Shown: piece by piece, positions 14,601 to 31,070 of the stretch
Numbering within the stretch: the first letter of the stretch is position 1
Layout of the letters: every line of letters begins with the position of its first letter
Virus record (IMG/VR): IMGVR_UViG_3300035204_001665
Coordinates: 18,870 to 82,869 of that record
Length of the DNA stretch: 64,000 bases
Reading direction: 5' to 3' (one strand)
Source of the DNA: a virus
Position numbers and translations under genes: made by a program
Notes under the pieces: generated by a model
The model's input: only the letters and a program-made list of their open reading frames with translations
What the model was told of the DNA's origin: nothing
Database searches by the model: none

Positions 14601-17600
14601 TAGTTCTTTTATCTCCGCGTCCAATTGTTGAAGCTGTAGGTTAAAGCCTTCTTTTAATAATTTTTGTAGCTCTTTAAGTGTGTCTCTCTGTGCGTCTGTA
14701 GCGTCCTCCATCACTGACCTAATATCTTCCATCACTAACTGGGTACCTAATTGTTCATTCGGGGCAAGTATTTTTCTTATTTGTTCATCTAATTTCTTCT
14801 TCTTGGCGGGCATCCTTTGAATTGCATATAAAGTGGGGTCGAGACCTTCCAGCCTTATCTGGTCTGTTAGACCACCAATCAAATCATCAAGATTGTCTAC
14901 TTGGTCCTCGACATATTGTTTTAATATTTTATCTACTTCCTTTTGGGCAATCTGGATATCGAGATATCTCTCACGAATTACAGAGTCTGACTGCATTGCT
15001 GCTTGCCTTAATGCGTTAGCTTGCGTTTTGTAATGTTCGTATTTGGCCCTTAGTTGTGCTATTTTTTTCGGGTCCTCTTCCTGCGCCTCCATAATCTCTA
15101 GCTCTAGTCGCATTTCCTCTGCCATGACCTTGGTTTGATCAGATTCCTTCAATCGCGCATTTCTCCAAGCGGTCGCAGTTGGTCGGGTAGCCTGCGCTGC
15201 ACTCGCTGCACTAGGATCTCTTGTCGCCGCTCCCCAGAAATCGAAACCGGTCGATTGACCTCCTTGGTATGCCATACTCGCATAATTTTTCCTCCAAGCG
15301 TCCATGGATAAACCTATTCGCCCACTACGCATTTCTCTTTGTCCGGCTCTATTAGCGGTTGGTGTAAGTGACGCCTCGAAAATTCTTCTATTTAATTGAC
15401 TTAAGTCTTCATTAGCTTGATCTGCATTCTTTAATTGCATTTCAAATAATATTCTTCGACGTTCTGTCTTGGCTGCTTCGTCTTTAATTTCGTTGTCGTA
15501 AATTTTAGCAAATTGGCTTTCGTATTTTCTTACTCTTAGTTCATTTAAATTAGCGAGTGAGGTTATTTTTTCCTGAACCGTTTTCATTGGGGATAATTGA
15601 GTATCCAAGTTATCTAACATGGCATTTTCTAAAGCATCATTGAGATCAATCATTTGATCCTTTATATACGTTTTCATCTCTTCGCCCAGTGGGCCCTGTT
15701 GGGCTTTAGCTAAGTGTCTCCATCCGCCAACGCCGAACATCTGACCTCCCACGCCAGAGAGTCTTCCCGCCTGATCCCAATTTGATCCGAGTTCAGGTTG
15801 CCCAAATAATCTGCCTATGCCGGGTTGATGCACGGAAGTTCTAAGCATGGAGCCTCTATCTCCTATTGGAATACCGGCAGCAGTAAATTTTTCTTCTGTA
15901 GCTTTTCTTCCTCGTCTCCAATCCCCCACAGCCGAAGCGTGCTCTGTTGCCATTTGTTTTTTCCATTCTACATGTTTTTCCGCTGGAGTCAACCCGGCCC
16001 ATTTTGCCTTGGCATTGTCGCCGTATTTTTTAACGTAGTGTGCTGGTGGAACTGTCTGAGTGTCAGCTGGCATCGCCCCCCTTCTCGGCGCGGGAGCGTC
16101 ATAGCCTTTAACCTCTTCAGCTGTGATGCCATATCTAGCCGCCTGTAAACTCACGTTGGGAGTATAACCCCCGAATTGGAGCCTTTCCATACTCGCACTA
16201 TGACGCGTGGCTCGTGCAGCAGAAAAAGCTGCCCGATTGTCCCTAGTCGCAGGAAGTCTTTCGAGCTTCATCAATTTTTGTACGTTATCGTCTAGCGTGC
16301 CTTGTAGTTTTCTGAAGAAGTTCTCATGATCTTCGTCGAAAAGAACTTCTAGTCTGTCGACTAAAGTTTTTTGGAAATCTGTTAAGGCGAAGTCACCACC
16401 GAGAATCTTATCGAAATCTTGATCTCTTCCCCAGTCCGCAAATACTTCTTTAAATTTATAGCCAAGCGAAGTGTCTTTTAATTGACCCAATTCAGTCCTA
16501 GATTCAAGACCTGTAAACTTTGCGCGTTTAAAGGCCGTGTCTGCCGCATAGCCTTTTTCCATAAATTTTTGTATATCTATATCCCTCAAGATTTGAAGGG
16601 CCTTTATTTGATCTTGAAGGCTTCCGGCTTGGACGTTCGCTATGGCTTTTTCAATTCTTAGCCTGTACTCTTGGAGCTTTACGACATCTCCATGCTCCTC
16701 CCCAATCTTCTTGATTGCTTCCAAGACTCCCATCAGCTGCGCCTGTTCCAATGCGTCCTGTCGGTCGAAATTATCAATGTCATTATCAAACTTGTCTTGC
16801 AGCTGCTCGAGTCTCGATCTTATAGAACCCTCTATTTTGCTTTCCTTAATGCCTGTCTCCAATGCCATTTGTACTTCATTGAGGACGGATTGAGGGCTAC
16901 TTTCTGCCACCGCAGTCAATCCCAGACGTGTCCCAGTTCCGAAGCCCGCCCATTCCTTAGCAGTTCCGCCTCTGAAGAGCCACTCTGCCTCTTTTTGTAT
17001 TCTTTTAAAGTCTGGTAATATAGCATCCATTTGCGACATGCGCTCTTGCTGCTGGTTCCACCAAAACTCTTTACCCCAATCTGTAAATAAGGACGGTCCG
17101 GCTGTCATAGGCCTTAAGTTAGGGTCACGGCCTTCATTTAGGCGTTCCCTCTCCTCGTTGTAGTATTCTTGATCTCTCAATGCTGCCAGCCTTTTTAGTC
17201 CGGTAGCTAAATCTCTTAACTCAGCATCAGTCATATCTATAGACTTCTTGCCTCCCTTACCGCCTTTGGTCCATCCGCCAACAAGTGAAGCTTTATATCT
17301 CTCGGCATCCTCTTGATCTTTGAGATTCTCAGATGCCTGCAGCCTGAAATAAGCGTCGATCGCAAGAGCACCTTGCCAGAATCTATTCTTTTTCATTCCA
17401 GACTCTCCGTACGAGCCGGCCTTCGGAACCTCTTTCCTTGCTGTCTCTTTATCTACTGCGAGCTCTATCCTCGCATCTCTCACTTTTAGTGCTTGGTTGC
17501 GCACAGCTCTTTCTCTAAAATCCCTTGCTAAATCCGCCGGCGGCGGCGGATTTAAAGGCCCGGCCCCGGAAACTTCAAAAACTTGACCACCTTGGTCGAT

Positions 17601-20600
17601 GGCACGTTCCTTAGCCTTAAGATTCAGAACCGCCTCTTGCCTGTCAATCCTTTCGTCGAGGAGTCTAATTCGTCTCCTTTCCCATTCTAGTGCATCTTTA
17701 AAATACTGTTCCTGCTTGTCGTTCGGCGCTAGATCCCATTCCTCACTCATGCCAAGTGCTTCTTTACTTAGCTTAATAGACAGTTTCTTATGACGCTCCG
17801 CTTCTGAATACGCCTTTTTGCGCTGTATTTCTAACTCGCGCTTTTCATGTTTATCGATATTGTCACGGCGCGAAAACTCCGTTATATTATCCCCTTTCAA
17901 TGTCCATATATCGCCTCGCTGTCTATGAGCCTCCGCGAGCCTTTCCTTTTCAGCGATCTGAGCCCTGCGGGAGATATTAGGAAGGTCTTCGCCGTATTTC
18001 ATGTATTTTTGATATGCATGTTTATAGCTTGCCAGCCAATCTTCATCGCCCCTATCTCCGGTCCTATCATTGGGCTCTACTCCCGTGTACCCCAGCTTTT
18101 TCGCCATAAACCATGCGCCTTGTTGATTTATGACCCTATCGCCACCAGTGGTTCCGCCGAGGAGGCTGGTAAACATCTTCACCCACTGAGTTCCGGTGCC
18201 CACGTTCCTGTCAATTATTTGAGAAAGGGCTCCATACAGAGTAGCTTCCTCTCCCTTTTTATATTTCACGAAGAAGTCACCCTCGTCTGATACCCCATTC
18301 TCGAAAAAGTCGTCCCCAATGGCTGGCAGAGCGCCGCCGCCGAGTGGCACGATTCTACCCGCATCGAGCTCCTTCTGCGTATATGTTCCTCGTTTCCTAT
18401 ACATGCCATCCTGACTCCAAACCGTATTGCCGGCTGCATCTTTTTCCCATGGTTGCCAATTGCCCGCTTTTGCTACAGCTAAATTTGCCTGAAAGTCTGG
18501 TCCCATGTTCGCGAGCACGCCTGAATCAAATCTTACATCTGATGGTATTTGTCCACGTGCTATTTGCTTAAGTGCTTCTACTCGTCCAGCATGACTGAGA
18601 TTCGGATCATCAAATAGAGCTTGCCCGACTGACATGAAAGCTTTAGCTTGCGCCGTCCTTGCCTCCCTTTGCGCTTTCTCAGCCGTACCCCCGGAACCAT
18701 CAGCGAGCAAGTTTCCCTGATCCCACTTCATCCAACCCATCTGCATAGCTAGATATTTTGACCGCAGATCTTTAAATTGTACATCCATCTTGCCTTGTTG
18801 GCTCAATCTTTCCTGTTCTGCGTCACTCGTGCTATTCATTAGCTGCATCGCTCTTTTTTCGTTCTTGTTAATCTCTTGGAGATTCTTCATGTACGTTTGA
18901 ATTCCGAAACCAACGTTAAAAGCAGTGATGAGACGTGACAGGCTATCATCTATTGACTGGAATCCCGCTTCATTTGTCGCCGTTATCACTGTCCCGATAT
19001 TGTCTATTCCGGTTTCTTTTATTGCTCGAGTAAAGGCACTTTGGTTTGCCTCCTCCAAGAATCTCCACTGATCCCCAAACATCTCCCTCAACAACTCCAT
19101 ATCATTTCTAATTTTGATCACATCTTCAGGCAAGGCTTTCAATTTCAACGCAGCGCTGACTTGCTGCATCGCGTCGTCTATTGCTCCTTCGCTCATTGAT
19201 TTAAAGACGCCCTGCCTCCACAATTCATCGTCTGGTTTAGCGCCCCCCCAAGACCTCAGGTTTTTATCCTTAATTTTGAGCTGTTTTTGTACGTCTAAAG
19301 TCAGGCCCAGTACGGCACTAGCAATCATCTTGTCGTAAGTCGGGTCGGAAAGCTGTCCCGCGTCCATACTGAAATTTTTTGTTAGATCCTGTAAAGACTT
19401 AAAGTCCGCCCTTCCTCTATTCATAAGTCGCTGCGGTATAGTCGGGCTAAATTCCGCCTCCGCCCTTTCCTCTCGCAGACTTCTAGTCTTTTTCCATCTT
19501 TCTCCTCCAGCAAAGCTAGCTATCCCTCCTCCAAATTTTAACTGTTGTTGAAGTTCGATTAGTCTTTCTTGATTCTTTGTTTGTATTTTTTGAATCATTA
19601 TCTCTTCTTGTTGTTGCTGTAGCAACTTCATTAAGCTTTGTTCGGCCGATTCTTTCAGAGAGCCTATCTCATTCACTACGGAATCTATCTCGGTAGAACT
19701 CAATCCTACGGTATTAAGCTCCCGACGAAGATTTTTCACTATGTTCGGCATCATTTGTTCCGGGGCAGCGGCTGATTGGTGCAGGGCTTTTCCCAGTATT
19801 TCAGAGAACGCCTGTTGAGCTCTCTCTCTTTTCTTTAATTCAGTTTTTTCAGTGATCGATAAGGGCTGGCCTTCTTTATATTGTTTTAGTTGTAGTCTTT
19901 GTACTGTCTTAGCATTTTCGTCCAGCTTTTTATCAAGAACACCAATTATGCTGCGCTGAGTTTTTGCAACCAATAACTGCCCTGACGCTAAATATTTCTC
20001 CATAGTGGCCATCTCTGCTATCTGTTGCTTCCGCTGCATTTGATCCCATTTTCCCTCGAAAGGATCAATCAATTTCGAGTGACCCCTCGCGTTTGTTAGG
20101 ACGGCCTTCCTAGAATAAGATTCTCTCATTCTTCTTCTTTCATTATGCCCTTCTACTCTTTTTCTTGCAATGTCAGTAATTGATTTAAGATTAAAATTAA
20201 AATGATCAAGCTGTTCTCCAGCTCTCTTCATTGCTACGTTAAATACGCCAGATATCTCTTTATTTTTTCTTATTACTTCCGCCAGCTTATCTAACTCGTC
20301 TGCGGCCTCGCTTTCAGCCTTTAGGCGATGCAGAATCGCCCCGTTGAGAGCGGTCATATCATGTATTCCTTTAACTAATACCTGCTCTATCGCCTCCATC
20401 AGTTCGGGGTTTAGGCCAACCTCCGCGAACCACTGCATATTATTTTTTACTCTCTCGTTATGCTTTATCCCGGGTCGGGTACCGGCCATCAATTTTCTTC
20501 TGAGCTCTTTGCCCGCAAAACCCTGAACGTCTTCCTTCTCTAACCTCCTCATGACAGAATCCACCACCGCATCTCTCGCAGCAGCTGCATTAAATCTCTG

Positions 20601-23600
20601 TTTTCTTGCCTGTTCAGCGCCACCCGCTGCAGCGGCTCCTCCACCGAATCCACCTTCTACACCTGTTTTGTCACCGCCCTGATGGCCCCAGAACCACCAC
20701 CCAATTTCGTCACGCTCCTTCCTGCCTTTTTCTATAGTTCCCGCAGCTTCAATGTCTTTAGCAACATCCTTCAGGGATTTTTCGATTCTTTCGAAGGTCT
20801 TTTTGAGTTCGTCGCCGCTATGAGCAGCCGCCCTAACATCCGCAGCAAATTCTCTCGGTACATTTCTTACGGACTCGAACATCGCGTCCGTTCTCTTTTT
20901 TAATTGTTCGGGGCTGATATCTGGATCAGTTAAAGCCTGCTGGTATTCAGCTTGATTCTTAAGATACTCTTGGGAAAGATTTTGAAACTCTTGCAGTTTT
21001 TCATTTGCCCCCTCTAGGGCCTCCTTCCATTTTTTGGTTTGGTCTCTAGAAGCTTCTCCCCACTTTTCAATTCCATCCAACACAGCGAATGTTGCAGCGC
21101 CAGCCATCACCCATGGATTGCCGCTCATTGCTCCCATCAAGCCAATGCTCATGCTATCTTGGACGACCTTGGACTTCTGCTCATCCATTCCGAGCCCGGC
21201 CATTGCTCCGCCGACCATAGGCATCGCCATCATTCCCATCATTGCCCCCTGTTGACCCCACTGTCCAACCATTCCTCCGCCGCGCTTCAACGAACCCATC
21301 ATACCGCCCCCCGCCGCTCCAGCGGCGGCACCGCCTACCATTTGCCCTGACGACATTGCATTTCTATTGTGCGCAGCAGCTTCTCTCGTGAGAGCTGCAG
21401 AATTTTTGTCATGTGCAGCGCGCTCTTCTTGAAGATCTATTTCTAGTTGCTTTCTTGTTGCTACTTCCTTATCGAGAGCTGCTCCTTCTTTTGTTCTTGA
21501 AACTTTATTCTTTTTTCTTTGTTGGACGCTGGCCCTTATTTCGTCCGCTTCTTTTTTTCGGTCTTTATTAGATTGGGTTAAAATTTTGTTTTCTTCCTTT
21601 TCCAGCTTTTCCTTTTCCTCATCAGTCATCGAGCTAGTCTTCCTTCCTTTAAGTCCAGCCTTTTCTCTAGCTTCCGATTTTTCTTTTCCGGTTAAATCGT
21701 CCCTTCCTCTTTCCTTATCTAACTTGTCGGCCTTGGCTAAATCTTTATCGTCTTTCTTTGTATTTTTTAAGTTTTTGGCAAACTCTTCTAGCGCTTGTTC
21801 TGCTTGCTCTGCGCCGTCGCCCAATTCTCTCTGCCGTTCCTTAAGATCCTCGCCCTCTGCCTGCATTGCTTCGAACCTAGTTCTAAGCTCTATGGCGGCT
21901 GAGCCTGTCTCTTTAAATTTATCTGCCAAGTCTTTGGCTCCCATAGCCATAAAGGCCAGAGCCATCGTATTTATGCCGGTGTCTACGCCGGTCATTCCTC
22001 CCCCCTCATCCTCCGCAAAGTTGGGAACAAACCCGCTTGAAGACAAAACCTTTTGAGCAGCCTTGGAGTTTTGCACTGCCCTACCTATACCTTCTGGATG
22101 ATCCCTTACTACATCAGCGAAACTACTTTGAGTTTTAGCGTCTCTTACATAAACTCCCACCCTAGGATTATAATCTAACGTCGGCTTTCCACCGAGCGCC
22201 TGCTCTGTCTCGATTGCTTCCATCACTCCGAAATTAGGAATGAAGCCCCCAGATTTTCCTTTGCCCTTTGTTCCCTTTTTACTACTTACTTCCGAACGTA
22301 TTCTCCTAAATTCATTGGCTATTTTTTCAGCCATACTTTTTCGAAGGGTCGGTGAATTCTGGGCCTTGTAATCTGCATGACCAACAAAGGGTACACCAAA
22401 TAAGTTTCTAACTTTTCCTGATCCTTTTGTACCCGATCTAACATCAAATCGTGCAGTTTCTACATCTTTAGCTCTAGCGAACGCTGCGTCTAATCCTGCT
22501 TCAAATACGTTGCCAACCGCAGATTTGAGAGCGCCAGTATTAAAATATTTCCCCGGCTCAGGAGTTAAAGCAGGCTTAATTGGGTCTGGACTGAATTCCC
22601 TTGCATACGCTGTCGCTGTTTTTGTCAAAGATTTTTCTACCTTTTTATGTAAAGAGTCCCTCCTGTTCTTGGGTATGTCTGGGTCATAAATATTAAATTT
22701 TATTCTCGTACTTTTCTTTCCTCTACCTGTTCCCGGAACTGACGCTATTGCTGAGGTCCCACGCCCAGCCCCGAGTCCCATCTCTGGCACTAACATCGCA
22801 GCCGACCGAGTAGCATCCCAAACTCCCCCAACTCTTCTCGGCTCAGCGACAGCGAAATTAGGAATAAATCCTCCAGAGAATAGTTTTTCTTTTCTTGCCG
22901 CTAAAGCGTTTTTGGTATCAAACCCCATTATCCTATTCATTTCGCCAAGGCTTCCTATGGCGGGAGTGCCAGAGGGAGACATCGTCCAAGTAGAAAGTTC
23001 ATTACCTCTATTTTTCGTTTCTATACCTATACGATTTTCTAGAGTACGTAAATGGGCAGCAGCCATTTGATCACCGCCCTTTATTTTTGATTGCAGCCTT
23101 CTCTTTAGGTGGCGCAAGCTAGAACTATTTGTTTCATATAAAGTTTTTTTAAAAATTTGAGCGACATATCTGGCTCTAAAAGATGGCTTAGATTCAACCG
23201 CAAAGTTTCTTCCTCCCACTCTTTCTCCCGAATCATAAGGTAACTTGAGTTTCTGTGGGTCCATGTCTTTTGCCGCTTGACTCTTGCCTCTAAATCGACC
23301 CATTCCAAATCCTCCGTATCTTGCGGCAAGTGCGGCTTCCTGTTGTCCTCCTTTTTTCGCCGCTCTCCTTCCTGTTCCTTTCGTAAATCCGGCCCTTTCT
23401 TTTTCGGTTATTGGTTTTTGTTGACCCAGCGTATTGATGGTTACATATTCACTTCCGGGAATAACATATTTAATGACTTTGCCTAGTTCTGGGCCGACCT
23501 CTTTAGCTAGCACGTCTCCCCTAATTTTTAATCTGCCACTAGACCCCTGTCTTCCCTGCTTGTCTACGCCAAGGCGTAGGGACGTAAGAAATTGCAAAAG

Positions 23601-25556
23601 GTTTGGAACAAATCCAAATGCGCTAGGTCCAGACGAATCCGGACTAAACCCCCATTGAGATTCGAATGCTTTCCCGTAAGATTTTCCCGCCTTGCCGGGG
23701 GGGATAATCGCTGGCTGTTTTATTCCGGGAAATCTTTTTACTTTTTCTGCGCCGTTATAAGTCACCCTTCCTTCTCCCGGAATACTCATTGTTTTAATCC
23801 GTCCGGGTTTATAACCTGCCTGCAGAGCACCAATGTATTCGCTCATTCCGGCGTTAAAGCTAGGAACATGACCTGAACTTTTTCTGATGAGTGTAGTCGT
23901 TCCTGTAGATTTATCAATTCTCGCGCCGACTTGCGAGCCCACCGCCGGAGTCATTTGTCTTGAAAGGGACAAGAGCTTTTCTCTTGCGATAATTTCTGAC
24001 TTCAAGGCTTCTAAAATCAAGTTTTCAGCTTTGAGTACGGACATCTCTCCGGTTTCTATCTTTTTAATTAAAGCTGGGTTAGACGAAAGGATACCGTGAA
24101 TTTGTTGCTGAACCGCTGCCTGTTGCTGGGCAGCTTTATTCAGCCCCATCATATCTTTCGTAGACTTAGCAAGGAAAGTTACAAAGTTATAAAATAATTT
24201 ACCCGCTATCGCTGTTAGCGCTATCAATCCCGGTCCAGATAAAAAGTTCCCGATAGACTGCATTACGCCCTTTGCCATCCTCCCCCCGAAATCGTTAGCT
24301 TCTTTATCGTTGAAACCGAAGAACCCTGCGATGTCTCCAAAAAAACTAGTTTTCTCAGTCAATTTATTAAAACCGTCCAATAGAGCCCTAAACGCTGGCT
24401 CAAATGACAGTGCCCCTATCTCTGCGCCCATCTTGGTAAGATTTTGCACAGACTCATTTGTTAGTGCCGCTAAGGTTTTATTTAGTTCTTGATTTCTACG
24501 TATGGCTTCATCAGTAGTATTAAGCGAAGTCTTAAGTGCTTGTTCATATATAGACGTTCCCTTTTTTAAATCTCCTAAAATCGCCTTTAAAATATTCATC
24601 TGATAAACACCACCGACCAGCTCTGCGGTTTGAGCCTTGGCTGCAGAACCCAAGCCATCATACGCCTTCGCGAAATCTTTCATGATTGCCATGGCTGGGC
24701 GTAAGTCTCCGTTCATCTTCTTTACTTGAACGCCCAAAGCTTCTAACTGTTGCTGGACACCTGTCCTCTGGACTCTTGTAAAAATTGTTTTTAGGGAGTT
24801 ACCAATAATATTACCGCCTCTGGCAGTTGTTTGTTGGGCTGAAGTAACCACCGCTATCAGTTCATCAAAACTTACATTTGCTCCTTCAGCGGTTGATGCG
24901 ACTCTTTTTATAGCCTCAGCTAAATCATTAGTACTAACCGCGAAAGCTGCATCCACATTTGCCATTTTATTAATAATTTCCGTAGAGGTAATTGCCGTTC
25001 TATTGAAACTGTTAATAGCGGCCGTTAGAGAATTCACGGCGGCGGTGGCATCCATACCCGATAGTCTCATTAATATCAGAGCGTCTCTTGTTCGAGTAAT
25101 GGTTTTTTCCATTCCCAGACCCTGCCTAGCAAATTCTTGAGCGGCCTCACCGACCTGTTGAAAAGATTGCCCTGTATTTTTTGCTACGTCGAAGAGGTTA
25201 TTACTGAATTTTTTTAAATTTGAACTTGAAGCATTGAGAATTACATTGATGCCAGCTAGAGTTTTTTCAACCTCTATTGTAGCTTTAGCCATTTCCTTAA
25301 AAGCACTAGTAACTCCATATAAAATTCCTGCCGAAGCGGTAAAGGCAATAACGCGGGCGTTAGAAGCATCTAAACTTTTTTGGAATTCGGCGATTGAACC
25401 AGTAATTTTACCAAGTGGTTGGGTGAATTTTTTAGAGTCTATGCCCTGTAGTTTTATTTGGGTACGCTCAGCCTTTCTGGCAAAATTAGCCAGATCCTTC
25501 TCCGCTCGACTAGTATCTAACCTAGCCTCTCCTTCAATTCTAAAGTCTACAGCCAT
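11637..25556 (-). CDS. Giant tail tape measure protein (4639 aa)
   Basis: TP901-like N-terminal TMP core (EFARQG, VDAAFAVST.DLAEAI.RV.S.A, T.RGG.IIGNSLKTIFTRV), long coiled coils, Gly/Ala/Met hydrophobic segments, and C-terminal FARGG..GSGTKDDVPA.L..GEYV motifs; lies downstream of tail tube and chaperone genes. Confidence 0.92.
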   Translation of the reverse strand: MAVDFRIEGEARLDTSRAEKDLANFARKAERTQIKLQGIDSKKFTQPLGKITGSIAEFQKSLDASNARVIAFTASAGILYGVTSAFKEMAKATIEVEKTLAGINVILNASSSNLKKFSNNLFDVAKNTGQSFQQVGEAAQEFARQGLGMEKTITRTRDALILMRLSGMDATAAVNSLTAAINSFNRTAITSTEIINKMANVDAAFAVSTNDLAEAIKRVASTAEGANVSFDELIAVVTSAQQTTARGGNIIGNSLKTIFTRVQRTGVQQQLEALGVQVKKMNGDLRPAMAIMKDFAKAYDGLGSAAKAQTAELVGGVYQMNILKAILGDLKKGTSIYEQALKTSLNTTDEAIRRNQELNKTLAALTNESVQNLTKMGAEIGALSFEPAFRALLDGFNKLTEKTSFFGDIAGFFGFNDKEANDFGGRMAKGVMQSIGNFLSGPGLIALTAIAGKLFYNFVTFLAKSTKDMMGLNKAAQQQAAVQQQIHGILSSNPALIKKIETGEMSVLKAENLILEALKSEIIAREKLLSLSRQMTPAVGSQVGARIDKSTGTTTLIRKSSGHVPSFNAGMSEYIGALQAGYKPGRIKTMSIPGEGRVTYNGAEKVKRFPGIKQPAIIPPGKAGKSYGKAFESQWGFSPDSSGPSAFGFVPNLLQFLTSLRLGVDKQGRQGSSGRLKIRGDVLAKEVGPELGKVIKYVIPGSEYVTINTLGQQKPITEKERAGFTKGTGRRAAKKGGQQEAALAARYGGFGMGRFRGKSQAAKDMDPQKLKLPYDSGERVGGRNFAVESKPSFRARYVAQIFKKTLYETNSSSLRHLKRRLQSKIKGGDQMAAAHLRTLENRIGIETKNRGNELSTWTMSPSGTPAIGSLGEMNRIMGFDTKNALAARKEKLFSGGFIPNFAVAEPRRVGGVWDATRSAAMLVPEMGLGAGRGTSAIASVPGTGRGKKSTRIKFNIYDPDIPKNRRDSLHKKVEKSLTKTATAYAREFSPDPIKPALTPEPGKYFNTGALKSAVGNVFEAGLDAAFARAKDVETARFDVRSGTKGSGKVRNLFGVPFVGHADYKAQNSPTLRKSMAEKIANEFRRIRSEVSSKKGTKGKGKSGGFIPNFGVMEAIETEQALGGKPTLDYNPRVGVYVRDAKTQSSFADVVRDHPEGIGRAVQNSKAAQKVLSSSGFVPNFAEDEGGGMTGVDTGINTMALAFMAMGAKDLADKFKETGSAAIELRTRFEAMQAEGEDLKERQRELGDGAEQAEQALEEFAKNLKNTKKDDKDLAKADKLDKERGRDDLTGKEKSEAREKAGLKGRKTSSMTDEEKEKLEKEENKILTQSNKDRKKEADEIRASVQQRKKNKVSRTKEGAALDKEVATRKQLEIDLQEERAAHDKNSAALTREAAAHNRNAMSSGQMVGGAAAGAAGGGMMGSLKRGGGMVGQWGQQGAMMGMMAMPMVGGAMAGLGMDEQKSKVVQDSMSIGLMGAMSGNPWVMAGAATFAVLDGIEKWGEASRDQTKKWKEALEGANEKLQEFQNLSQEYLKNQAEYQQALTDPDISPEQLKKRTDAMFESVRNVPREFAADVRAAAHSGDELKKTFERIEKSLKDVAKDIEAAGTIEKGRKERDEIGWWFWGHQGGDKTGVEGGFGGGAAAAGGAEQARKQRFNAAAARDAVVDSVMRRLEKEDVQGFAGKELRRKLMAGTRPGIKHNERVKNNMQWFAEVGLNPELMEAIEQVLVKGIHDMTALNGAILHRLKAESEAADELDKLAEVIRKNKEISGVFNVAMKRAGEQLDHFNFNLKSITDIARKRVEGHNERRRMRESYSRKAVLTNARGHSKLIDPFEGKWDQMQRKQQIAEMATMEKYLASGQLLVAKTQRSIIGVLDKKLDENAKTVQRLQLKQYKEGQPLSITEKTELKKRERAQQAFSEILGKALHQSAAAPEQMMPNIVKNLRRELNTVGLSSTEIDSVVNEIGSLKESAEQSLMKLLQQQQEEIMIQKIQTKNQERLIELQQQLKFGGGIASFAGGERWKKTRSLREERAEAEFSPTIPQRLMNRGRADFKSLQDLTKNFSMDAGQLSDPTYDKMIASAVLGLTLDVQKQLKIKDKNLRSWGGAKPDDELWRQGVFKSMSEGAIDDAMQQVSAALKLKALPEDVIKIRNDMELLREMFGDQWRFLEEANQSAFTRAIKETGIDNIGTVITATNEAGFQSIDDSLSRLITAFNVGFGIQTYMKNLQEINKNEKRAMQLMNSTSDAEQERLSQQGKMDVQFKDLRSKYLAMQMGWMKWDQGNLLADGSGGTAEKAQREARTAQAKAFMSVGQALFDDPNLSHAGRVEALKQIARGQIPSDVRFDSGVLANMGPDFQANLAVAKAGNWQPWEKDAAGNTVWSQDGMYRKRGTYTQKELDAGRIVPLGGGALPAIGDDFFENGVSDEGDFFVKYKKGEEATLYGALSQIIDRNVGTGTQWVKMFTSLLGGTTGGDRVINQQGAWFMAKKLGYTGVEPNDRTGDRGDEDWLASYKHAYQKYMKYGEDLPNISRRAQIAEKERLAEAHRQRGDIWTLKGDNITEFSRRDNIDKHEKRELEIQRKKAYSEAERHKKLSIKLSKEALGMSEEWDLAPNDKQEQYFKDALEWERRRIRLLDERIDRQEAVLNLKAKERAIDQGGQVFEVSGAGPLNPPPPADLARDFRERAVRNQALKVRDARIELAVDKETARKEVPKAGSYGESGMKKNRFWQGALAIDAYFRLQASENLKDQEDAERYKASLVGGWTKGGKGGKKSIDMTDAELRDLATGLKRLAALRDQEYYNEERERLNEGRDPNLRPMTAGPSLFTDWGKEFWWNQQQERMSQMDAILPDFKRIQKEAEWLFRGGTAKEWAGFGTGTRLGLTAVAESSPQSVLNEVQMALETGIKESKIEGSIRSRLEQLQDKFDNDIDNFDRQDALEQAQLMGVLEAIKKIGEEHGDVVKLQEYRLRIEKAIANVQAGSLQDQIKALQILRDIDIQKFMEKGYAADTAFKRAKFTGLESRTELGQLKDTSLGYKFKEVFADWGRDQDFDKILGGDFALTDFQKTLVDRLEVLFDEDHENFFRKLQGTLDDNVQKLMKLERLPATRDNRAAFSAARATRHSASMERLQFGGYTPNVSLQAARYGITAEEVKGYDAPAPRRGAMPADTQTVPPAHYVKKYGDNAKAKWAGLTPAEKHVEWKKQMATEHASAVGDWRRGRKATEEKFTAAGIPIGDRGSMLRTSVHQPGIGRLFGQPELGSNWDQAGRLSGVGGQMFGVGGWRHLAKAQQGPLGEEMKTYIKDQMIDLNDALENAMLDNLDTQLSPMKTVQEKITSLANLNELRVRKYESQFAKIYDNEIKDEAAKTERRRILFEMQLKNADQANEDLSQLNRRIFEASLTPTANRAGQREMRSGRIGLSMDAWRKNYASMAYQGGQSTGFDFWGAATRDPSAASAAQATRPTATAWRNARLKESDQTKVMAEEMRLELEIMEAQEEDPKKIAQLRAKYEHYKTQANALRQAAMQSDSVIRERYLDIQIAQKEVDKILKQYVEDQVDNLDDLIGGLTDQIRLEGLDPTLYAIQRMPAKKKKLDEQIRKILAPNEQLGTQLVMEDIRSVMEDATDAQRDTLKELQKLLKEGFNLQLQQLDAEIKELDRSILQLRSGPATSDNLQQLASGLEKRIEKSLEQFMFGTGGGGKDQNLIDTIKKRLGLDTSSGGKRPGYAPLGLFPSQSRLIQAGQAPANSWRSLNIGWNQTPEAARRAGIDARPLGGEAPGVPYWSDSKSPLKKKLGGLLASLGIQGKGERPKWITDLEKKFGLNKQGGRVLHGYLQGSLGTSEDVFGPGQSPEVQKRLFDELTQLDLGGQKLTPKQIREFYLAMTKAQKNFHENSLKMSKEAHDNRFQLERRTLYLMKASGAMPSAISAQEEKTWQAGRAAWQVGTASLLKDHPDLMPGKIQPGITTPIAPVIENMKVAAKRAWAKHDTLMLGEDVEGALAASEEAKKYEHQAKLLEQMAKDGKSLEEAWKNIKIKKLKNDLTDLREQINLDMLDPGTLSRETIEARREETRKSIKDGSYQMKQTFKDLFAAWHYGTKEMMIDADEALFTFGMEFRSGIASAFGEAIKGTKTLEEAFSDMFLKLADYALDQVLQMTVNRVIGSFAQAAPAATGGLITNNGVQKFARGGPVVGGSGTKDDVPAFLQQGEYVLRKAAVKKYGVSLIDLINNEGFGAVNKYATGGRVGAGVRAGRGPGKIVGDPKLGQPAYILYPDGSKTLVSEMTALRRQRGLPQYEHTDPDPSFFGKKNYKVDYWTHLSEPTTHGGLGMSTKDIAKLKAQWEANAFADPQEGLVSNIKHGREGRWVDYNLRNAFVYDSDKFPSLDHSYFSIDPRLTRQALADSDNPRNKIRQDKVSKLYSYYEDRASDLIAHAEAVAKWKAAKKKRMKYSMIAAAASLGISALTGGAGLGMPGAQGTVGGNFFSWLGGASGGAVTSRGIGKATGGLIGDAIPAMLMGGEYVVNRSAVQKYGSDFFTQLNKGNVPAFASGGYVGGNGLRSSKGSEKNAKGIMSEPSVADGDTTNNITINVNLNENGGITTDVNTGGEGISLEKARSLGTLIKQTVVETIVQQKRQGGILHQSTQNRG

Positions 25557-25578
25557 GTCCCTTAAACCTTAATTATTA

Positions 25579-25586
25579 ATTACACT
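25579..25586 (-). promoter_or_regulatory. AGTGTAAT motif upstream of the tape measure gene
   Basis: The minus strand reads AGTGTAATTAATAATTAAGGTTTAAGGGACATG. Confidence 0.5.
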
Positions 25587-25598
25587 GGTTTAATGGGA

Positions 25599-26627
25599 TT
25601 ATTGATGATGAATCTCAATAAAATCATCCATATCCATAGTTCCCCCTCTTTTGGCTGCTTCATCAGCTAAGTTTATAGTTTGACTACTATTTTGCTTGTA
25701 TCCTAGTTTTTCTAGGTCCTTTTTGGTCGCACCGACAATTGTAGACGCGCCTTGCCCTTGCGCCCCCTTACCTTTGCTCATTTTCTCCATAGCTTCTTCT
25801 GCGTTTTTAGACCCCTCATAGAATTCAATCAGCGCGTCAGGGTCTTTTCTGATTTGCATTGGGGCTGGCGTCTTGGCGTCTTGAGCTAAATTTTTAAAAT
25901 ATCTACCATAAGTATATAGTTCATTTTGATTGTGGGTAAGTTGAACGACTGGTCTGCCATAAAAGTTGTATATATTATCATCACACAAATAAAAGAAATT
26001 TGTAAAAAATGTACATAACGATATTCTTTTTATGTTTAAGTGATTAAGTAACTTACTTCTTGAACTATACGCTTGATATATAGAGGTCAGTTCCTGATCA
26101 TTTAGTTCATCGAATTCCTCGGGAGAATAGAGTAGCTTTTTATATTCCTTATCCTTAAAGAGTACTTGGTGCATAAAATATTCGTTGCTTCTTTTTTCTG
26201 CGTATGCTTCTGCCACGAAACCTACTAGCTGATTTCTTCTGTTTATTATCTCATTAAGTTTTTTAGAGTTTTCTTCAATTAATTTTCTAACCCTTTGGAT
26301 TTCGGAGTCTAGAAATAACTTGCTTTTAGTTGCTTGAAGATTGTCGGTATAAGTTTTGAGCTGGGCCATTTCTGTCTCTTGTGACCTATCCCAAAGACCT
26401 TCCGAAGCTAGATAGTCTAATTGCTCTCTTCTAGTGGGTAGCCCCATACCCCTAGCTTTATCAAAAGAATTTTTGTAACATTTGTCCGTATCTATGGAGT
26501 CATAGACATTTAGATGCTTTATATACCCCTCGTTATAATCGGTTTTTATGGGGGTATAGCCATTTAGAATATCTAGATATACTATTTTTAACTCTTCCTC
26601 AGAGGGCGCTGCTTCCTTTTTGGCCAT
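25599..26627 (-). CDS. Putative tail assembly chaperone
   Basis: Helical, charged 342-aa protein immediately upstream of the TMP; function inferred from position only. Confidence 0.45.
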   Translation of the reverse strand: MAKKEAAPSEEELKIVYLDILNGYTPIKTDYNEGYIKHLNVYDSIDTDKCYKNSFDKARGMGLPTRREQLDYLASEGLWDRSQETEMAQLKTYTDNLQATKSKLFLDSEIQRVRKLIEENSKKLNEIINRRNQLVGFVAEAYAEKRSNEYFMHQVLFKDKEYKKLLYSPEEFDELNDQELTSIYQAYSSRSKLLNHLNIKRISLCTFFTNFFYLCDDNIYNFYGRPVVQLTHNQNELYTYGRYFKNLAQDAKTPAPMQIRKDPDALIEFYEGSKNAEEAMEKMSKGKGAQGQGASTIVGATKKDLEKLGYKQNSSQTINLADEAAKRGGTMDMDDFIEIHHQ

Positions 26628-26637
26628 GATAAAAGTT

Positions 26638-27621
26638 TTAAGTTAGGTTCACATCTTGATTTTCTTTTTCGACTTTGGCTTCGCTTTCCGTTTTTTCTTT
26701 GTCCGCAGCTTCGCTTTTAACTTTAGCTTTTGTTTTGACCCTTTTCTTTTTTTCTTTTGCACTAGACTCTTTAGCCACAGCCACAGTTTCTTCAACTTGT
26801 ATTTCATTTTCTGCTCCTTCTTCTCCCTCTTTTCCTTGTTCGAATTCTACCTCGTATTTAGAGTCATCCTCTCCTAGGTCTGCTTGCTCTGCGAATTTAA
26901 TTAGTTCCTTAAACTGATCGGGATCGCTAGTCTTACTTACGTACCAGAAACTTACATAATAAAAAAACTTATTAAGTGTGCCCAGTACCCAATCATCATC
27001 GTTTTCTTCCATCTCATCATATCTAGCCAGCTTTTCTTCATAAGTGCCCTCTCCAAAATAGCTAGACTCTTTTTCTTTTTCGTCGACCTGATAACCAAGG
27101 TGGAGAACCCACCAAAGAATAGTCTTGTTTCTTGCCCTATTTTCTGCAGTTTGATCATAAAGACTAGACTGATTCGATTCAAATTCCTGTATCCTTTCTC
27201 TAGCGTTAGAAAGAAATTCCGAAATCTCTGTGAATTTTTCCTTTTCTTCTGCGGATCTTTCTTCTGTAGTTTTTAGGGCAATCTTTTGTAATTCTACTTG
27301 CTTGTCGAATACGTCGTTATATAACGCGCCGAACTCGTCTTTTTCCTTGTCACTTAAGATGCCCCCATCGTTACTAAATCTTTTTGCCAACAACGCCCTA
27401 GTTAAAAGGCCGGCCTTAATACCTTCTGATAGCTTGACCCCATAGAATAGCTCCGCATCATCATATAGTTTTCTAGTGGGCCTTCTAATGAAAAACTTCT
27501 TGTCTACAGATTTAATTACATCTTTACTGACTGTAATATCTGCACCGTCATCGCCCTTTCCCTGAGATACCTCCTTTACCGTCTCCTCTTTAGGGAGAAC
27601 AAATTCATATATTCTTTTCAT
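26638..27621 (-). CDS. Putative tail assembly chaperone
   Basis: Helical 327-aa protein with an E/K-rich tail between tail tube and TMP; function inferred from position only. Confidence 0.45.
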   Translation of the reverse strand: MKRIYEFVLPKEETVKEVSQGKGDDGADITVSKDVIKSVDKKFFIRRPTRKLYDDAELFYGVKLSEGIKAGLLTRALLAKRFSNDGGILSDKEKDEFGALYNDVFDKQVELQKIALKTTEERSAEEKEKFTEISEFLSNARERIQEFESNQSSLYDQTAENRARNKTILWWVLHLGYQVDEKEKESSYFGEGTYEEKLARYDEMEENDDDWVLGTLNKFFYYVSFWYVSKTSDPDQFKELIKFAEQADLGEDDSKYEVEFEQGKEGEEGAENEIQVEETVAVAKESSAKEKKKRVKTKAKVKSEAADKEKTESEAKVEKENQDVNLT

Positions 27622-27645
27622 ACCTTTTTCCTTATTATTATATTT

Positions 27646-27870
27646 TTATTTGAACTTAATATCAAAATTTTCCAGACTTTCCTCGAGCTCTCTTATGGCG
27701 TCATTACCATAATCTAGTACTCTTTTCCTAATTTTTTGATAATCTTCGGGGGGAATAGATTGATCGTGGACCTTTAAGTCTTCAATAAGAATCAGAAAGT
27801 TTTTACACAAATTGATTACTTTCCTCCTATTGTGGAATGCAATAAATTCCCTACCTTTTTTTCCGTCCAT
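27646..27870 (-). CDS. Small hypothetical protein
   Basis: 74-aa ORF with AAGGAG RBS and a TGTATAAT element upstream. Confidence 0.6.
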   Translation of the reverse strand: MDGKKGREFIAFHNRRKVINLCKNFLILIEDLKVHDQSIPPEDYQKIRKRVLDYGNDAIRELEESLENFDIKFK

Positions 27871-27922
27871 TAATCCTTACTCCTTACCTATATTATACAG
27901 TTCAAAAAGCCTTAATTAATAT

Positions 27923-27954
27923 AAAAAAACCCCCCATTTTTCAATGGGAGGTTT
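27923..27954 (-). terminator. Rho-independent terminator after the major tail gene
   Basis: Minus strand AAACCTCCCATT-GAAA-AATGGGGGGTTT followed by a T run. Confidence 0.8.
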
Positions 27955-27975
27955 CTGTTTGTGTTAACTAAGGAA

Positions 27976-29085: not shown

Positions 29086-29144
29086 AATAAATATTCCTTA
29101 TTTGTTATAAATTACATTTTATTTTAATTGTTGGGAACTATTGG

Positions 29145-29999: not shown

Positions 30000-30628
30000 A
30001 ATCTACCCCATCCCGTTTTAAAAGTTTTCAATATAGCTGACATATAGATAGTTCTTGTATACATTGCTGTACGCATTTCTCTGCTGGATTGTGTGCCCTT
30101 TCCGGACCGACTAGTCGGCACTATGTAAGTATGATATATATAATTTCCTAACCCAGAGATCCCCTTTTCTATTCTCCGCAGCCAACTTCCCGGCTCCCAA
30201 GGCATAGGGGACGCAGAGTCCAGCTGTTTCATATCTGGAGATTTTATACGGTAAGAATAGCTCACGCTTTTTTTTCTTACGGTCACGGTCGGCTTTCTTA
30301 TTAATCTTGTATTAAATTCCAACATACTTCTTACTATACTAACCGGGCTGCTCCCAGCGTCAAAACCTATAAAAGTAAATAAGTTTCCATATCCGCCCAA
30401 CGTTCCGCTTATATTCGCTGCAGATGCACCAGCTTCAATTTCTTTGGTGACTGGATGGTTATTAAAATTAGAAATTAATTCATTTCTTTTTCTAATAAAT
30501 GCAGCGTTTACTCTTTGATGGACCTTGCGCTCTGGCTCGGAAGAAATTTGCCTTCCTTTTTTCTTCATACCGCTGTGCATCTTCGTTCTAACAGCGGTCT
30601 TGTTAATTTTAGCTTTAAATTTTCCCAT
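29996..30628 (-). CDS. Putative tail completion / neck protein (basic)
   Basis: Basic 210-aa protein in the neck gene order, with overlapping start/stop codons on both sides. Confidence 0.4.
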   Translation of the reverse strand: MGKFKAKINKTAVRTKMHSGMKKKGRQISSEPERKVHQRVNAAFIRKRNELISNFNNHPVTKEIEAGASAANISGTLGGYGNLFTFIGFDAGSSPVSIVRSMLEFNTRLIRKPTVTVRKKSVSYSYRIKSPDMKQLDSASPMPWEPGSWLRRIEKGISGLGNYIYHTYIVPTSRSGKGTQSSREMRTAMYTRTIYMSAILKTFKTGWGRL

Positions 30629-31068: not shown

Positions 31069-31070
31069 AT

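What the first reader, a model, noticed from the sequence alone, without database searches (positions are those of the whole stretch)
22014..23880. Motif-delimited cassettes inside the TMP, two resembling PD-(D/E)xK nucleases
Seen: five copies of an (S/F)(S/G)G(F/H)(I/V)P(N/S)F-like motif: SSGHVPSFN (~23850-80), AFGFVPNLL (~23595-624), SGGFIPNFA (~22851-80), SGGFIPNFG (~22228-57) and SSGFVPNFA (~22014-43). They bracket basic, non-coiled-coil segments. The segment of about 240 aa has GGQQE...PYD...VESK and the segment of about 200 aa has GNVFE...RFD...ADYK. Both match the E / D / (D/E)xK spacing of restriction-endonuclease-fold domains. Established: the TMP is ejected into the cell at infection. 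Inference: the TMP is a polyprotein delivery vehicle whose repeats are cleavage or recombination joints, releasing interchangeable effectors (nucleases or DNA-binding anti-defence proteins) at DNA entry.
Basis: partly seen in the sequence, partly recalled or inferred. Interest (0 to 1): 0.75.

Follow-up and report, generated by a model that had tools for sequence, protein, structure and literature searches.

The report
Peptide-fenced modules in giant tape measure
The 4,639-residue tail "ruler" protein of this uncultured marine phage carries four folded modules near its start, each fenced by the same short peptide that relatives use as the joint for adding or swapping modules; two modules keep a nuclease-like set of charged residues, but no nuclease fold, cutting or delivery has been shown.

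Summary
All five motif copies lie in frame at the stated coordinates in one 4,639-aa TP901-type tape measure protein (TMP, window 11637-25556, minus strand). The motif, [AK][AS]xG[FYHL][IV]PN[FY][AS], is family-wide: 833 copies in 188 related giant TMPs against 3.65 expected by shuffling, with 0-24 per protein.

It fences modules that relatives add, drop, duplicate and reorder: 979 segments fall into 161 families. The commonest layout has four motifs; this phage's lineage has one extra 239-aa module.

Both long segments keep an E...D...(D/E)xK signature. In the 199-aa module family only nine positions are at least 90% conserved over 94 sequences, and four of them are that signature.

The motif is modelled as disordered linker, its codons differ between copies, and it occurs in no other gene. 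Whether it is cut, docked or bound by a host chaperone is untested.

This scan has found the same architecture in at least 17 other genomes. My literature searches found no description of it.

The parts
11637..25556 (-). Giant tape measure protein gene, 4639 aa (P0001)
   Evidence: ORF list and translation. PF10145 92.7 bits. TIGR01760 106.9 bits. TMP PHROGs at N and C termini.
24621..25184 (-). TP901-type TMP core domain (residues 125-312)
   Evidence: PF10145 E 3.6e-26. 61-71% identical to P0002-P0008 over residues 1-555.
23853..23879 (-). Motif copy 1, SSGHVPSFN (residues 560-568), degenerate (S in place of N)
23625..23855 (-). Module A (residues 568-644, 77 aa). The most widespread small module of the family; Pro/Gly-rich.
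   Evidence: Family 0: 212 segments in 211 proteins. 19 positions at least 90% conserved over 187 unique sequences. No Pfam or PDB relative.
23595..23621 (-). Motif copy 2, AFGFVPNLL (residues 646-654)
   Evidence: Lies in a pLDDT<50 stretch of model m131b9c969592.
22881..23597 (-). Module c2 (residues 654-892, 239 aa, net +25). A lineage-specific insertion with invariant E740, D775, E788-x-K790.
   Evidence: Family 5: 19 segments in 19 proteins. Invariant columns. Model pLDDT 60.9, mostly helical, signature region below 50. No fold match.
22851..22877 (-). Motif copy 3, SGGFIPNFA (residues 894-902)
   Evidence: pLDDT<50 in both models.
22257..22853 (-). Module c3 (residues 902-1100, 199 aa, net +19). 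A core module of the family with G1015, F1018, E1019, D1038, F1053, D1062, K1064, S1074 and K1078 conserved.
   Evidence: Family 2: 106 segments in 105 proteins. Nine positions at least 90% conserved over 94 unique sequences. Alpha/beta model with pLDDT 62-93 per ten-residue block over this part. Homologous to family 4, hhalign 95.2%. No fold match.
22227..22253 (-). Motif copy 4, SGGFIPNFG (residues 1102-1110)
   Evidence: pLDDT<50 (model residues 205-219).
22044..22229 (-). Module D (residues 1110-1171, 62 aa). A small alpha-beta-beta-alpha-alpha module containing YVRD...RDHPEG...NS.
   Evidence: Family 3: 88 segments in 88 proteins. 22 positions at least 90% conserved over 75 unique sequences. 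Model blocks at pLDDT 77-92. No PDB relative.
22014..22040 (-). Motif copy 5, SSGFVPNFA (residues 1173-1181), the end of the cassette array
   Evidence: Its C-terminal residues fall in the pLDDT<50 tail of the model.
21057..21386 (-). Gly/Met-rich hydrophobic stretch (residues 1391-1500) after a Lys/Glu-rich stretch. Read as the membrane-active part typical of TMPs; this is an inference.
   Evidence: Translation. 24.5% Pro+Gly.
16152..16175 (-). Loose sixth match FGGYTPNV (residues 3128-3135), probably chance
   Evidence: Not conserved in P0002, and no other of the eight proteins tried (P0002-P0008, P0048) aligned there.
25599..27621 (-). Two conserved genes (342 aa and 327 aa) directly upstream of the TMP, in the position of tail assembly chaperones. 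Function unknown.
   Evidence: tblastn hits in 76 and 73 of 86 related loci, directly upstream of the TMP. No PHROG or Pfam match.

Best explanation
What it is. This is the tail tape measure protein of an uncultured marine long-tailed phage, from a large lineage without cultured members. A rack of separately folding modules sits between the conserved N-terminal TMP core (residues 1-555) and the hydrophobic and ruler parts. Every junction is the same flexible peptide of about 10 residues, [AK][AS]xG[FYHL][IV]PN[FY][AS].

Module layout. The ancestral rack is motif-A-motif-c3-motif-D-motif. This phage's lineage has inserted one further module (c2), with its own motif, between A and c3. Other lineages carry up to 24 motifs, and in some lineages even the long ruler segments are bounded by motifs.

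How it probably works (inferred). The modules travel as part of the TMP in the tail lumen and leave the tail ahead of the DNA. Precedents are the RNA-polymerase part of Thermus phage P23-45 TMP and the muralytic part of T5 pb2. c3, and probably c2, are metal-dependent enzymes built around the E...D...(D/E)xK signature. They are most likely nucleases or DNA-binding enzymes acting at DNA entry.

The motif (my committed but unproven mechanism). It is a recognition peptide for one common partner. I favour a processing site that separates modules from the ruler after tail assembly or after ejection, as T5 pb2 is cut between its enzyme part and the rest while both pieces stay in the tail.

Shown here: the motif, its family-wide conservation, module shuffling at the motif, the conserved signature, and disorder of the motif in the models. 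Inferred: delivery, enzyme activity and cleavage.
For: TMP identity.

Motif statistics: 833 observed against 3.65 expected in 188 proteins. All 43 proteins of the first search carry 3-24 copies. 55 of 64 complete IMG/VR ORFs have exactly four copies, near residues 540, 622, 890 and 965.

Module shuffling: 979 inter-motif segments form 161 families. The same families appear in different orders, positions and copy numbers; for example family 0 is N-terminal in most proteins but C-terminal in P0026-P0032, and P0026 has 8|8|8.

Linker behaviour: the motif residues lie in, or for copy 5 partly in, pLDDT<50 stretches of both models, while module D and most of c3 are modelled confidently. Codons differ between copies, so selection acts on the peptide. 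The strict motif occurs in 0 ORFs other than the TMP in 86 related loci plus the whole 82.9-kb record.

Enzyme-like signature: nine positions at least 90% conserved in 94 unique c3-family sequences include E1019, D1038, D1062 and K1064. By my reading of the consensus strings, the same G..E / hD / (D/E)xK pattern recurs in families 4 and 19 and in c2 (family 5). Family 4 is homologous to c3, hhalign 95.2%. The secondary structure around the c3 signature runs helix(E)-strand(D)-helix-strand(DxK)-helix.

Recognised nuclease cargo: SNase PF00565 lies inside motif-bounded cassettes of P0037 and P0039.

Selection: modules are better conserved (38-65% identity) than the ruler (20-34%) against P0002-P0008.

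Precedents: the N-terminal part of P23-45 gp96 (5,002 aa) is a virion RNA polymerase (PMC10770324: abstract and passages). T5 pb2 is cut after R1127 between its hydrophobic stretch and its metallopeptidase motif, and both parts stay in the tail (PMC10038345: passages).

Against: No peptidase domain was recognised in the protein, and no protease was looked for elsewhere in the record.

c3, A and D are core parts of nearly all relatives. They may therefore serve tail assembly rather than act as cargo.

Position 4 of the motif is S in about 5% of copies, including copy 1 here. More distant relatives keep only A-S-G-h-[IV]-P. Any chemistry that needs the Asn therefore cannot be universal.

Contigs of four seawater runs show no cassette gain or loss in this phage.

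Folded modules of 200 aa in three copies are hard to fit in a tail lumen of about 4 nm (established dimension, recalled).
Confidence: 0.5

Rival explanations
1. The motif is a docking peptide and is not cut. It would bind a phage partner that coats or holds the TMP during tail assembly. Candidates are the conserved 342-aa and 327-aa proteins encoded directly upstream, in the place of tail assembly chaperones, or the lumen of the tail tube. Every inserted module would then bring its own handles.
For: The motif is disordered in monomer models and restricted to the TMP. The two upstream genes are syntenic in 76 and 73 of 86 loci. In lambda the chaperone gpG binds gpH along its length (recalled, not checked here). 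In some lineages motifs also bound the long ruler segments, which suits a general handling signal.
Against: Spacing between motifs is very irregular, from under 10 residues to more than 1,900. The upstream proteins have no recognisable family.
Confidence: 0.25
2. The motif recruits a host periplasmic chaperone or prolyl isomerase (SurA-, FkpA- or PpiD-like) to the unfolded TMP as it leaves the tail. That would keep the modules soluble, or ratchet the very long chain out of the tail.
For: Positions 1-5 of the consensus, [FY]-I-P-N-[FY], resemble Y-I-P-N-V of the phage-display peptide WEYIPNV. That peptide binds the SurA P1 domain with Kd 1-14 uM, and the reported preference is Ar-X-Ar-X-Pro (PMC11401910: passages). 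HK97 infection needs the periplasmic PPIase FkpA together with its TMP (Cumby 2015, as cited in PMC7229145; that paper itself was not read). The only binning hints for hosts are four taxa: Proteobacteria, Flavobacteriales, Neomarinimicrobiota and Nomurabacteria. That the first three are diderms is recalled; for Nomurabacteria I do not know the envelope type.
Against: The first aromatic residue of Ar-X-Ar-X-Pro is absent; that position is S, G, K or R. The resemblance was recalled after the fact from one peptide. The host is unknown. Motifs cluster at module borders rather than being spread along the chain.
Confidence: 0.1
3. The modules are structural parts of the tail and not effectors. Together with the motif they would form a trimeric plug, collar or head-proximal end of the TMP, and the charged signature would bind a metal or a partner.
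For: A, c3 and D are present in most relatives at fixed positions just after the TMP core. They are as conserved as the core itself. No enzyme fold was found.
Against: Nine conserved positions dominated by E, D, D, K, S and K in an otherwise free-drifting domain of 200-260 aa look like an active site. Relatives place SNase, and by my reading a Walker-A-like module, in equivalent fenced slots. Cassette number varies from 3 to 24 among the giant relatives, which is hard to reconcile with a fixed structural role.
Confidence: 0.2
4. The small conserved modules (A, D and the related E family) are cis-acting self-processing domains that cut at their own flanking motifs. Cutting could for instance be at Asn-Phe by Asn cyclisation. 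This would turn the TMP into a self-cleaving polyprotein.
For: Small modules are always flanked by two motifs and alternate with large segments, as in P0028: 7|4|22|1|6|3|30|0. They hold many invariant polar residues, such as RDHPEG and NS in D. D and E are weakly related, hhalign 28%, E 6e-4. Self-cleavage at Asn is known in other viral and secretion proteins (recalled).
Against: No similarity to any known autoprocessing domain. Asn is replaced by Ser in about 5% of copies. Models place the motifs away from the module body as disordered tails.
Confidence: 0.08

Closest known systems
Thermus phage P23-45 gp96, a 5,002-aa tape measure protein with an N-terminal virion RNA polymerase (PMC10770324; abstract and passages read)
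   Same: A giant TMP of a very long-tailed phage that carries a folded enzyme in its N-terminal part and is thought to be injected ahead of the DNA.
   Different: gp96 carries one large enzyme, with no repeated fence peptide and no array of shuffled modules. No sequence similarity was seen: tblastn of residues 540-1200 found nothing in 50,697 phage records (I did not check that P23-45 is among them). Here the modules follow a PF10145 core, and their function is unknown.
Phage T5 pb2 maturation cleavage (PMC10038345; passages read)
   Same: A TMP that is cut during tail assembly between the ruler/hydrophobic part and an enzyme part, with both pieces staying in the tail. This is a precedent for processing at a module border.
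   Different: T5 has a single site after R1127 near the C terminus. No G-h-[IV]-P-N-[FY] motif is reported in the passages I read. Cleavage here is not shown.
Polyvalent proteins of phages and conjugative elements (PMC5512222; abstract and passages read)
   Same: Many unrelated domains joined in one giant polypeptide that enters the host with the DNA. Domains are shuffled between relatives, and release by processing has been proposed.
   Different: Those proteins are head-packaged or conjugation-transferred and rely on embedded peptidase domains. The phrase 'tape measure' occurs 0 times in that paper's main text. No peptidase domain was recognised here. A uniform fence peptide is not a feature described in the passages I read.
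TMPs with embedded cell-wall enzymes, such as mycobacteriophage TM4 motif 3 and lactococcal or staphylococcal TMPs (recalled, not checked here). Relatives P0014 and others carry PF01832 glucosaminidase.
   Same: Enzyme domains built into a TMP and used at entry.
   Different: Those domains are single, lie in the C-terminal half and are not fenced by a repeated peptide. The glucosaminidase of P0014 (residues 2098-2230) lies outside the motif array, whose last motif is at residue 972.

Membership tests
TP901-type tape measure protein (PF10145 / TIGR01760) | N-terminal PhageMin_Tail / tape_meas_TP901 core domain above the curated cut-off | tested here: met
   PF10145 92.7 bits against 33.2. TIGR01760 106.9 bits against 28.8.
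TP901-type tape measure protein (PF10145 / TIGR01760) | C-terminal region and overall length typical of TMPs, within a tail gene neighbourhood | tested here: met
   TMP PHROGs match residues 4444-4638. A lambda-J-like central fibre gene lies at 3653-8806 (phrog_31, E 3.6e-150), but on the opposite strand and convergent. That arrangement recurs in 55 of 86 related loci.
TP901-type tape measure protein (PF10145 / TIGR01760) | Sets tail length and lies in the tail lumen | not testable with these tools
   No cultured member: searches found no match in 50,697 phage records.
PD-(D/E)xK nuclease superfamily | Conserved E ... D ... (D/E)xK residues | tested here: met
   c3: E1019, D1038 and K1064 at 100% and D1062 at 93% over 94 unique sequences. 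c2: E740, D775, E788 and K790 at 100% over 11 unique sequences.
PD-(D/E)xK nuclease superfamily | Alpha-beta-beta-beta-alpha-beta core fold with the signature on helix 1, strand 2 and strand 3 | tested here: inconclusive
PD-(D/E)xK nuclease superfamily | Profile match to a described nuclease family | tested here: inconclusive
   hmmscan of both segments against Pfam at E<=10 gave 0 families. Remote members of this superfamily often escape such scans (established).
PD-(D/E)xK nuclease superfamily | Metal-dependent nuclease activity | not testable with these tools
   Needs purified protein.
Viral or phage polyprotein / polyvalent protein | Several unrelated modules in one chain, shuffled between relatives | tested here: met
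   161 module families. Order, number and position vary.
Viral or phage polyprotein / polyvalent protein | Embedded or accompanying peptidase | tested here: inconclusive
   Pfam on the whole protein found only PF10145. Twelve cassette-rich relatives were scanned; PF10145 was the only family found and 11 of the 12 carry it. The rest of the phage record was not screened for proteases.
Viral or phage polyprotein / polyvalent protein | Cleavage at the junctions | not testable with these tools
   Needs mass spectrometry of virions or expressed fragments.
SurA P1-binding peptides (Ar-X-Ar-X-Pro) | Aromatic, any, aromatic, non-polar, Pro | tested here: not met
   The second aromatic (F/Y/H 84%, L 12%), the non-polar residue (I/V 96%) and Pro are present. 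The first aromatic position is S, G, K, R, Q or D. The resemblance to WEYIPNV covers only Y-I-P-N-V.

The most novel reading that the evidence does not exclude
The G-h-[IV]-P-N-[FY] peptide is a dedicated processing or hand-off signal. It would make the tape measure protein a plug-in delivery polyprotein. Any module inserted between two copies would be loaded into the tail lumen, ejected ahead of the DNA and set free in the host. Free modules would include nucleases (PD-(D/E)xK-like c2 and c3 here, SNase in relatives), NTPase-like modules and unknown enzymes. This would be a phage counterpart of effector-loaded secretion-system spikes, with the small flanked modules (A, D, E) acting as the self-cutting or chaperone-recruiting units.
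Probability: 0.2. Interest if true: 0.85.

Novelty: new variant of a known kind. Interest (0 to 1): 0.62.

Why it matters
Tape measure proteins are usually treated as rulers with at most one cell-wall enzyme attached. Here a whole uncultured lineage uses one short peptide as a universal joint for an exchangeable set of modules, in the protein that enters the host first. The lineage has 340 cluster representatives in a 1.84-billion-protein library and 213 IMG/VR stretches.

If the modules are released, this would be a new route for phages to deliver ready-made enzymes, possibly anti-defence nucleases. It would also offer a natural design for loading cargo into phage tails.

The fence peptide is a sharp, testable handle. 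One mass-spectrometry or peptide-binding experiment would decide between cutting, docking and chaperone recruitment.

The conserved nine-residue signature of c3 defines a new candidate enzyme family with no recognisable fold.

Tried and rejected
Fold and family searches
- Foldseek against PDB for both models and against BFVD for the c3+D model gave nothing at E<=0.001.
- Pfam on the four segments at E<=10 gave none. NCBIfam found only the TP901 core plus a sub-threshold chance hit. PHROGs matched the TMP ends only.
- PDB profile searches with modules A and D gave nothing meaningful. The ESM Atlas search for c3 gave best 0.86, a lead only.
- Pfam on 12 cassette-rich relatives found only PF10145.

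Other tests
- hhalign of module A against module D aligns only the motif itself, 16 columns. They are therefore not shown to be homologous.
- Cultured relatives: blastn and tblastn against 50,697 phage records found none. A recollection that the E-type small module occurs in known phage TMPs was therefore not confirmed, and I dropped it.
- Single-protein search for related loci in viral contigs found nothing. The alignment-based scan worked.
- GTDB genomes gave only six MAG contigs, so no host could be named.
- DNA-level recombination site: rejected, because the five copies use different codons.
- Trans-loaded proteins carrying the motif: none in 86 loci plus the whole record.
- Natural split of the gene at a motif: the one short ORF (L019, 1011 aa) is broken by a frame change in a run of A after the fourth motif and continues in another frame. 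It is uninformative.
- Population variants: contigs of four seawater runs show no cassette-sized joints. Two of the runs may be the source of this DNA, and contigs drop rare variants.

Literature
- 'tape measure protein' with 'polyprotein': 14 papers, none relevant by listing.
- Motif strings: 3 unrelated papers.
- 'tape measure protein' with 'nuclease domain' and 'ejected': 0 papers.
- 'tape measure protein' with 'embedded', 'domain' and 'cargo': 15 papers, none on this by listing.
Supplements of PMC10038345 (pb2 cleavage-site figure) and PMC5512222 (architecture lists) could bear on the comparison.

Limits
- No multimer or peptide-partner model could be made.
Full report
WHAT IS THERE

The finding lies inside one open reading frame, window 11637..25556 on the minus strand, 4,639 codons.

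The product is a TP901-type tape measure protein (TMP):
- Pfam PF10145 matches residues 125-312 at 92.7 bits against a cut-off of 33.2.
- TIGR01760 matches at 106.9 bits against 28.8.
- TMP families of PHROGs match the first 480 or so residues and the last 200 or so.
- Nothing in Pfam, NCBIfam or PHROGs covers residues 540-1200.

The record is an 82,869-base IMG/VR virus contig with estimated completeness 54%. A lambda-J-like central fibre gene lies at 3653-8806 on the other strand, convergent with the TMP (phrog_31, E 3.6e-150).

The five copies are in frame at residues 560-568, 646-654, 894-902, 1102-1110 and 1173-1181. Their window coordinates are 23853-23879, 23595-23621, 22851-22877, 22227-22253 and 22014-22040.

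A sixth loose match at residues 3128-3135 is not conserved in the one relative that aligns there. I count it as chance.

In the whole window the loose pattern has nine six-frame matches. Six are in this frame and the other three are weak matches in other frames.

The five copies use different codons for G, F, P and N. What is conserved is therefore the peptide, not the DNA.

The two long segments are 239 aa (net charge +25) and 199 aa (net charge +19), so both are basic.

THE MOTIF IS A FAMILY TRAIT

A word-indexed search with residues 540-1200 found 43 proteins, self included, of 2,589-7,487 aa among 1,486 candidates. All 43 carry 3-24 copies.

A full HMMER scan of 1.84 billion cluster representatives gave 340 hits at E<=0.001 and 256 at E<=1e-10.

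Over the 188 proteins then in hand:
- The pattern occurs 833 times against 3.65 per shuffle.
- Five proteins have none.
- The mode is four copies (67 proteins).
- The consensus is [AK][AS]xG[FLYH][IV]PN[FY][AS], with G and P fixed by the pattern, N 93%, F/Y 95% and I/V 96%.
- The five proteins without a match keep degenerate forms such as A-S-G-G-L-I-P-Q-V.

An alignment-based scan of IMG/VR confirmed 213 stretches that encode module A, of which 80 were kept. GTDB species genomes gave six loci, all on metagenome-assembled contigs binned to four different taxa, so no host can be named.

All relatives are metagenomic, from Tara Oceans, JGI and ENA. Neither blastn nor tblastn found any match in 50,697 phage records.

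Contigs identical to this stretch occur in seawater metagenomes. Two of the four runs laid may be the source of this DNA.

MODULES AND THEIR SHUFFLING

I cut all proteins and locus ORFs at the motif. The set was 212 proteins plus 83 locus ORFs and includes some near-identical cluster members.

This gave 979 segments of at least 30 aa in 161 families. Of these, 38 have three or more members and 97 are singletons.

This protein reads A (family 0, 77 aa) | c2 (family 5, 239 aa) | c3 (family 2, 199 aa) | D (family 3, 62 aa), followed by 1,946 aa without a credible motif.

The commonest layout is four motifs near residues 540, 622, 890 and 965, that is A | c3-like (about 260 aa) | D or E. It is found in 55 of 64 complete IMG/VR ORFs of 1.0-2.6 thousand aa, all but one above 1,860 aa.

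c2 occurs in only 19 proteins of this phage's own lineage. It is an insertion, with an extra motif, between A and c3.

Other lineages differ strongly:
- Family 0 sits at the far C-terminal end in P0026-P0032.
- P0026 (7,487 aa) has 24 motifs and three tandem copies of family 8.
- Families 8, 9, 13, 15, 17 and 23 appear in different orders in different proteins.
- In P0027-P0033 even the 700-1,600-aa ruler-like stretches are bounded by motifs and alternate with the small modules.

Against P0002-P0008, identity by region is as follows:

| Region | Identity |
|---|---|
| N-terminal core | 61-71% |
| Module A | 55-65% |
| Module D | 44-64% |
| c2 | 38-61% |
| c3 | 40-51% |
| Ruler, residues 1181-4100 | 20-34%, partial coverage only |

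The modules are thus under stronger constraint than the ruler.

THE NUCLEASE QUESTION

For c3, nine positions are at least 90% conserved over 94 unique family members: G1015, F1018, E1019, D1038, F1053, D1062, K1064, S1074 and K1078.

For c2, E740, D775, E788 and K790 are invariant, but in only 11 unique sequences that share many other positions.

Family 4, the alternative central module of 59 relatives, is homologous to c3 (hhalign 95.2%, E 2.6e-8). By my reading of the consensus strings it carries the same G..E / FD / ADxK pattern, and the family 19 consensus shows G..GE / FDL / EVK.

A signature of this kind, standing out of otherwise free-drifting sequence, is what an active site looks like.

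The fold evidence, however, is absent:
- The c2 model (12 sequences) has mean pLDDT 60.9, is mostly helical, and places the D...ExK stretch in a region below 50.
- The c3+D model (28 sequences) has mean pLDDT 75.1. Around the signature it runs helix 118-136 (E130), strand 150-151 (after D149), helix 157-163, strand 171-174 (D173, then K175), helix 180-193 (S185, K189). This order is compatible with, but does not prove, a PD-(D/E)xK core.
- Foldseek against PDB gave best E 2.0 and 0.16. Foldseek against BFVD gave best E 0.16.
- None of these showed a nuclease that I recognise as PD-(D/E)xK. All the scores are below what the tool's own notes regard as meaningful.

I therefore rate c3 as a PD-(D/E)xK-type enzyme at about one in three, and c2 lower.

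Independently, relatives do carry a recognised nuclease in a fenced slot. SNase (PF00565) lies at residues 2146-2243 of P0037, between motifs at 2113 and 2315. It lies at residues 903-1001 of P0039, between motifs at 864 and 1065.

By eye, the family 13 consensus contains a Walker-A-like G-P-S-G-V-G-K-x-T, although Pfam did not recognise it.

The glucosaminidase of P0014 (residues 2098-2230) lies outside the motif array.

WHAT THE MOTIF DOES

What is shown:
- The motif lies in, or for copy 5 partly in, stretches below pLDDT 50 at the module borders of both models, while module D and most of c3 are modelled confidently.
- It is conserved as a peptide.
- The strict form occurs in no ORF other than the TMP in 86 related loci plus the whole record.
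- Modules A and D share nothing but the motif.

It therefore behaves as a short linear recognition peptide in a flexible linker, used only within the TMP.

What recognises it is not shown. I favour processing, with T5 as the precedent. Its TMP pb2 is cut after R1127 during tail morphogenesis, between the hydrophobic stretch and the metallopeptidase motif, and both pieces remain in the tail (PMC10038345, passages).

The main rival is docking to a phage partner. Seven genes upstream of the TMP are syntenic in 57-76 of 86 loci. Among them are a 342-aa and a 327-aa protein in the place of tail assembly chaperones, and none has a recognisable family.

A third lead is recruitment of a periplasmic chaperone. 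Positions 1-5 of the consensus resemble Y-I-P-N-V of the SurA P1-binding peptide WEYIPNV (Kd 1-14 uM; PMC11401910, passages). HK97 needs the periplasmic prolyl isomerase FkpA together with its TMP (as cited in PMC7229145). The first aromatic residue of the Ar-X-Ar-X-Pro preference is missing here, so this remains only a lead.

A self-cutting role for the small modules is the boldest option and has no direct support.

COMPARISON WITH WHAT IS KNOWN

The closest case is Thermus phage P23-45 gp96. It is a 5,002-aa TMP whose N-terminal part is a virion RNA polymerase thought to be injected with the TMP (PMC10770324, abstract and passages).

The polyvalent proteins of phages and conjugative elements share the logic of many shuffled domains delivered in one chain and released by processing. 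That paper never mentions tape measure proteins in its main text, and it relies on embedded peptidases (PMC5512222).

What is new here is a uniform fence peptide and an exchangeable array inside a TMP.

My searches for the motif strings, and for TMP together with polyprotein, nuclease domain or cargo, found no description of it.

Within this scan, the same architecture has already been followed up on other DNA, in at least 17 genomes, with the same outcome.

VERDICT

c3 is a core module rather than an interchangeable one.

I class this as a new variant of a known kind, namely TMPs that carry enzymes, with a sharp and experimentally testable handle in the fence peptide.

Noticed in passing
window 10473-11630 (+): A tubulin/FtsZ-family GTPase gene (PF00091, E 1.2e-12; weak TubZ-like C-terminal hit) sits between the convergent TMP and tail-fibre operons. 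It has no counterpart in any of the 86 related loci.
   Followed up: partly
window 973-11630 (+) versus 11637-31589 (-): Unusual tail-gene layout. The TMP ends one operon and converges on the operon that holds the J-like central fibre. The same convergent layout recurs in 55 of 86 related loci, and seven upstream genes are syntenic in 57-76 loci.
   Followed up: partly
window 11900-13070 (-), residues about 4166-4555: The C-terminal part holds five A-[ST/R]-G-G-x-[IV]-like peptides and two copies of a D-D/A-V/I-P-A-x-L-x-x-G-E-Y-V...K-Y-G stretch. Distant relatives whose fence motif has decayed keep A-S-G-G-L-I-P. The fence peptide may therefore be an elaborated form of this commoner TMP peptide.
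   Followed up: no
L019 11380-11860: A relative's TMP is broken by a frame change in a run of A shortly after its fourth motif and continues in another frame. This could be a sequencing error or slippage; it is undecided.
   Followed up: partly
P0026, P0037, P0040, P0041 (module family 13): A fenced module of 155-180 aa whose consensus holds a Walker-A-like G-P-S-G-V-G-K-x-T. Pfam does not recognise it.
   Followed up: no
window 31626-34226 (-): The 866-aa protein upstream of the conserved tail genes has no counterpart in any of the 86 related loci, unlike its seven neighbours. The 1425-aa and 2152-aa genes further upstream gave only weak PHROG hits of unknown function.
   Followed up: no
window 46834-49666 (-): Two proteins with collagen-like tail-fibre PHROG matches flank a plus-strand gene at 45692-46837.
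   Followed up: no
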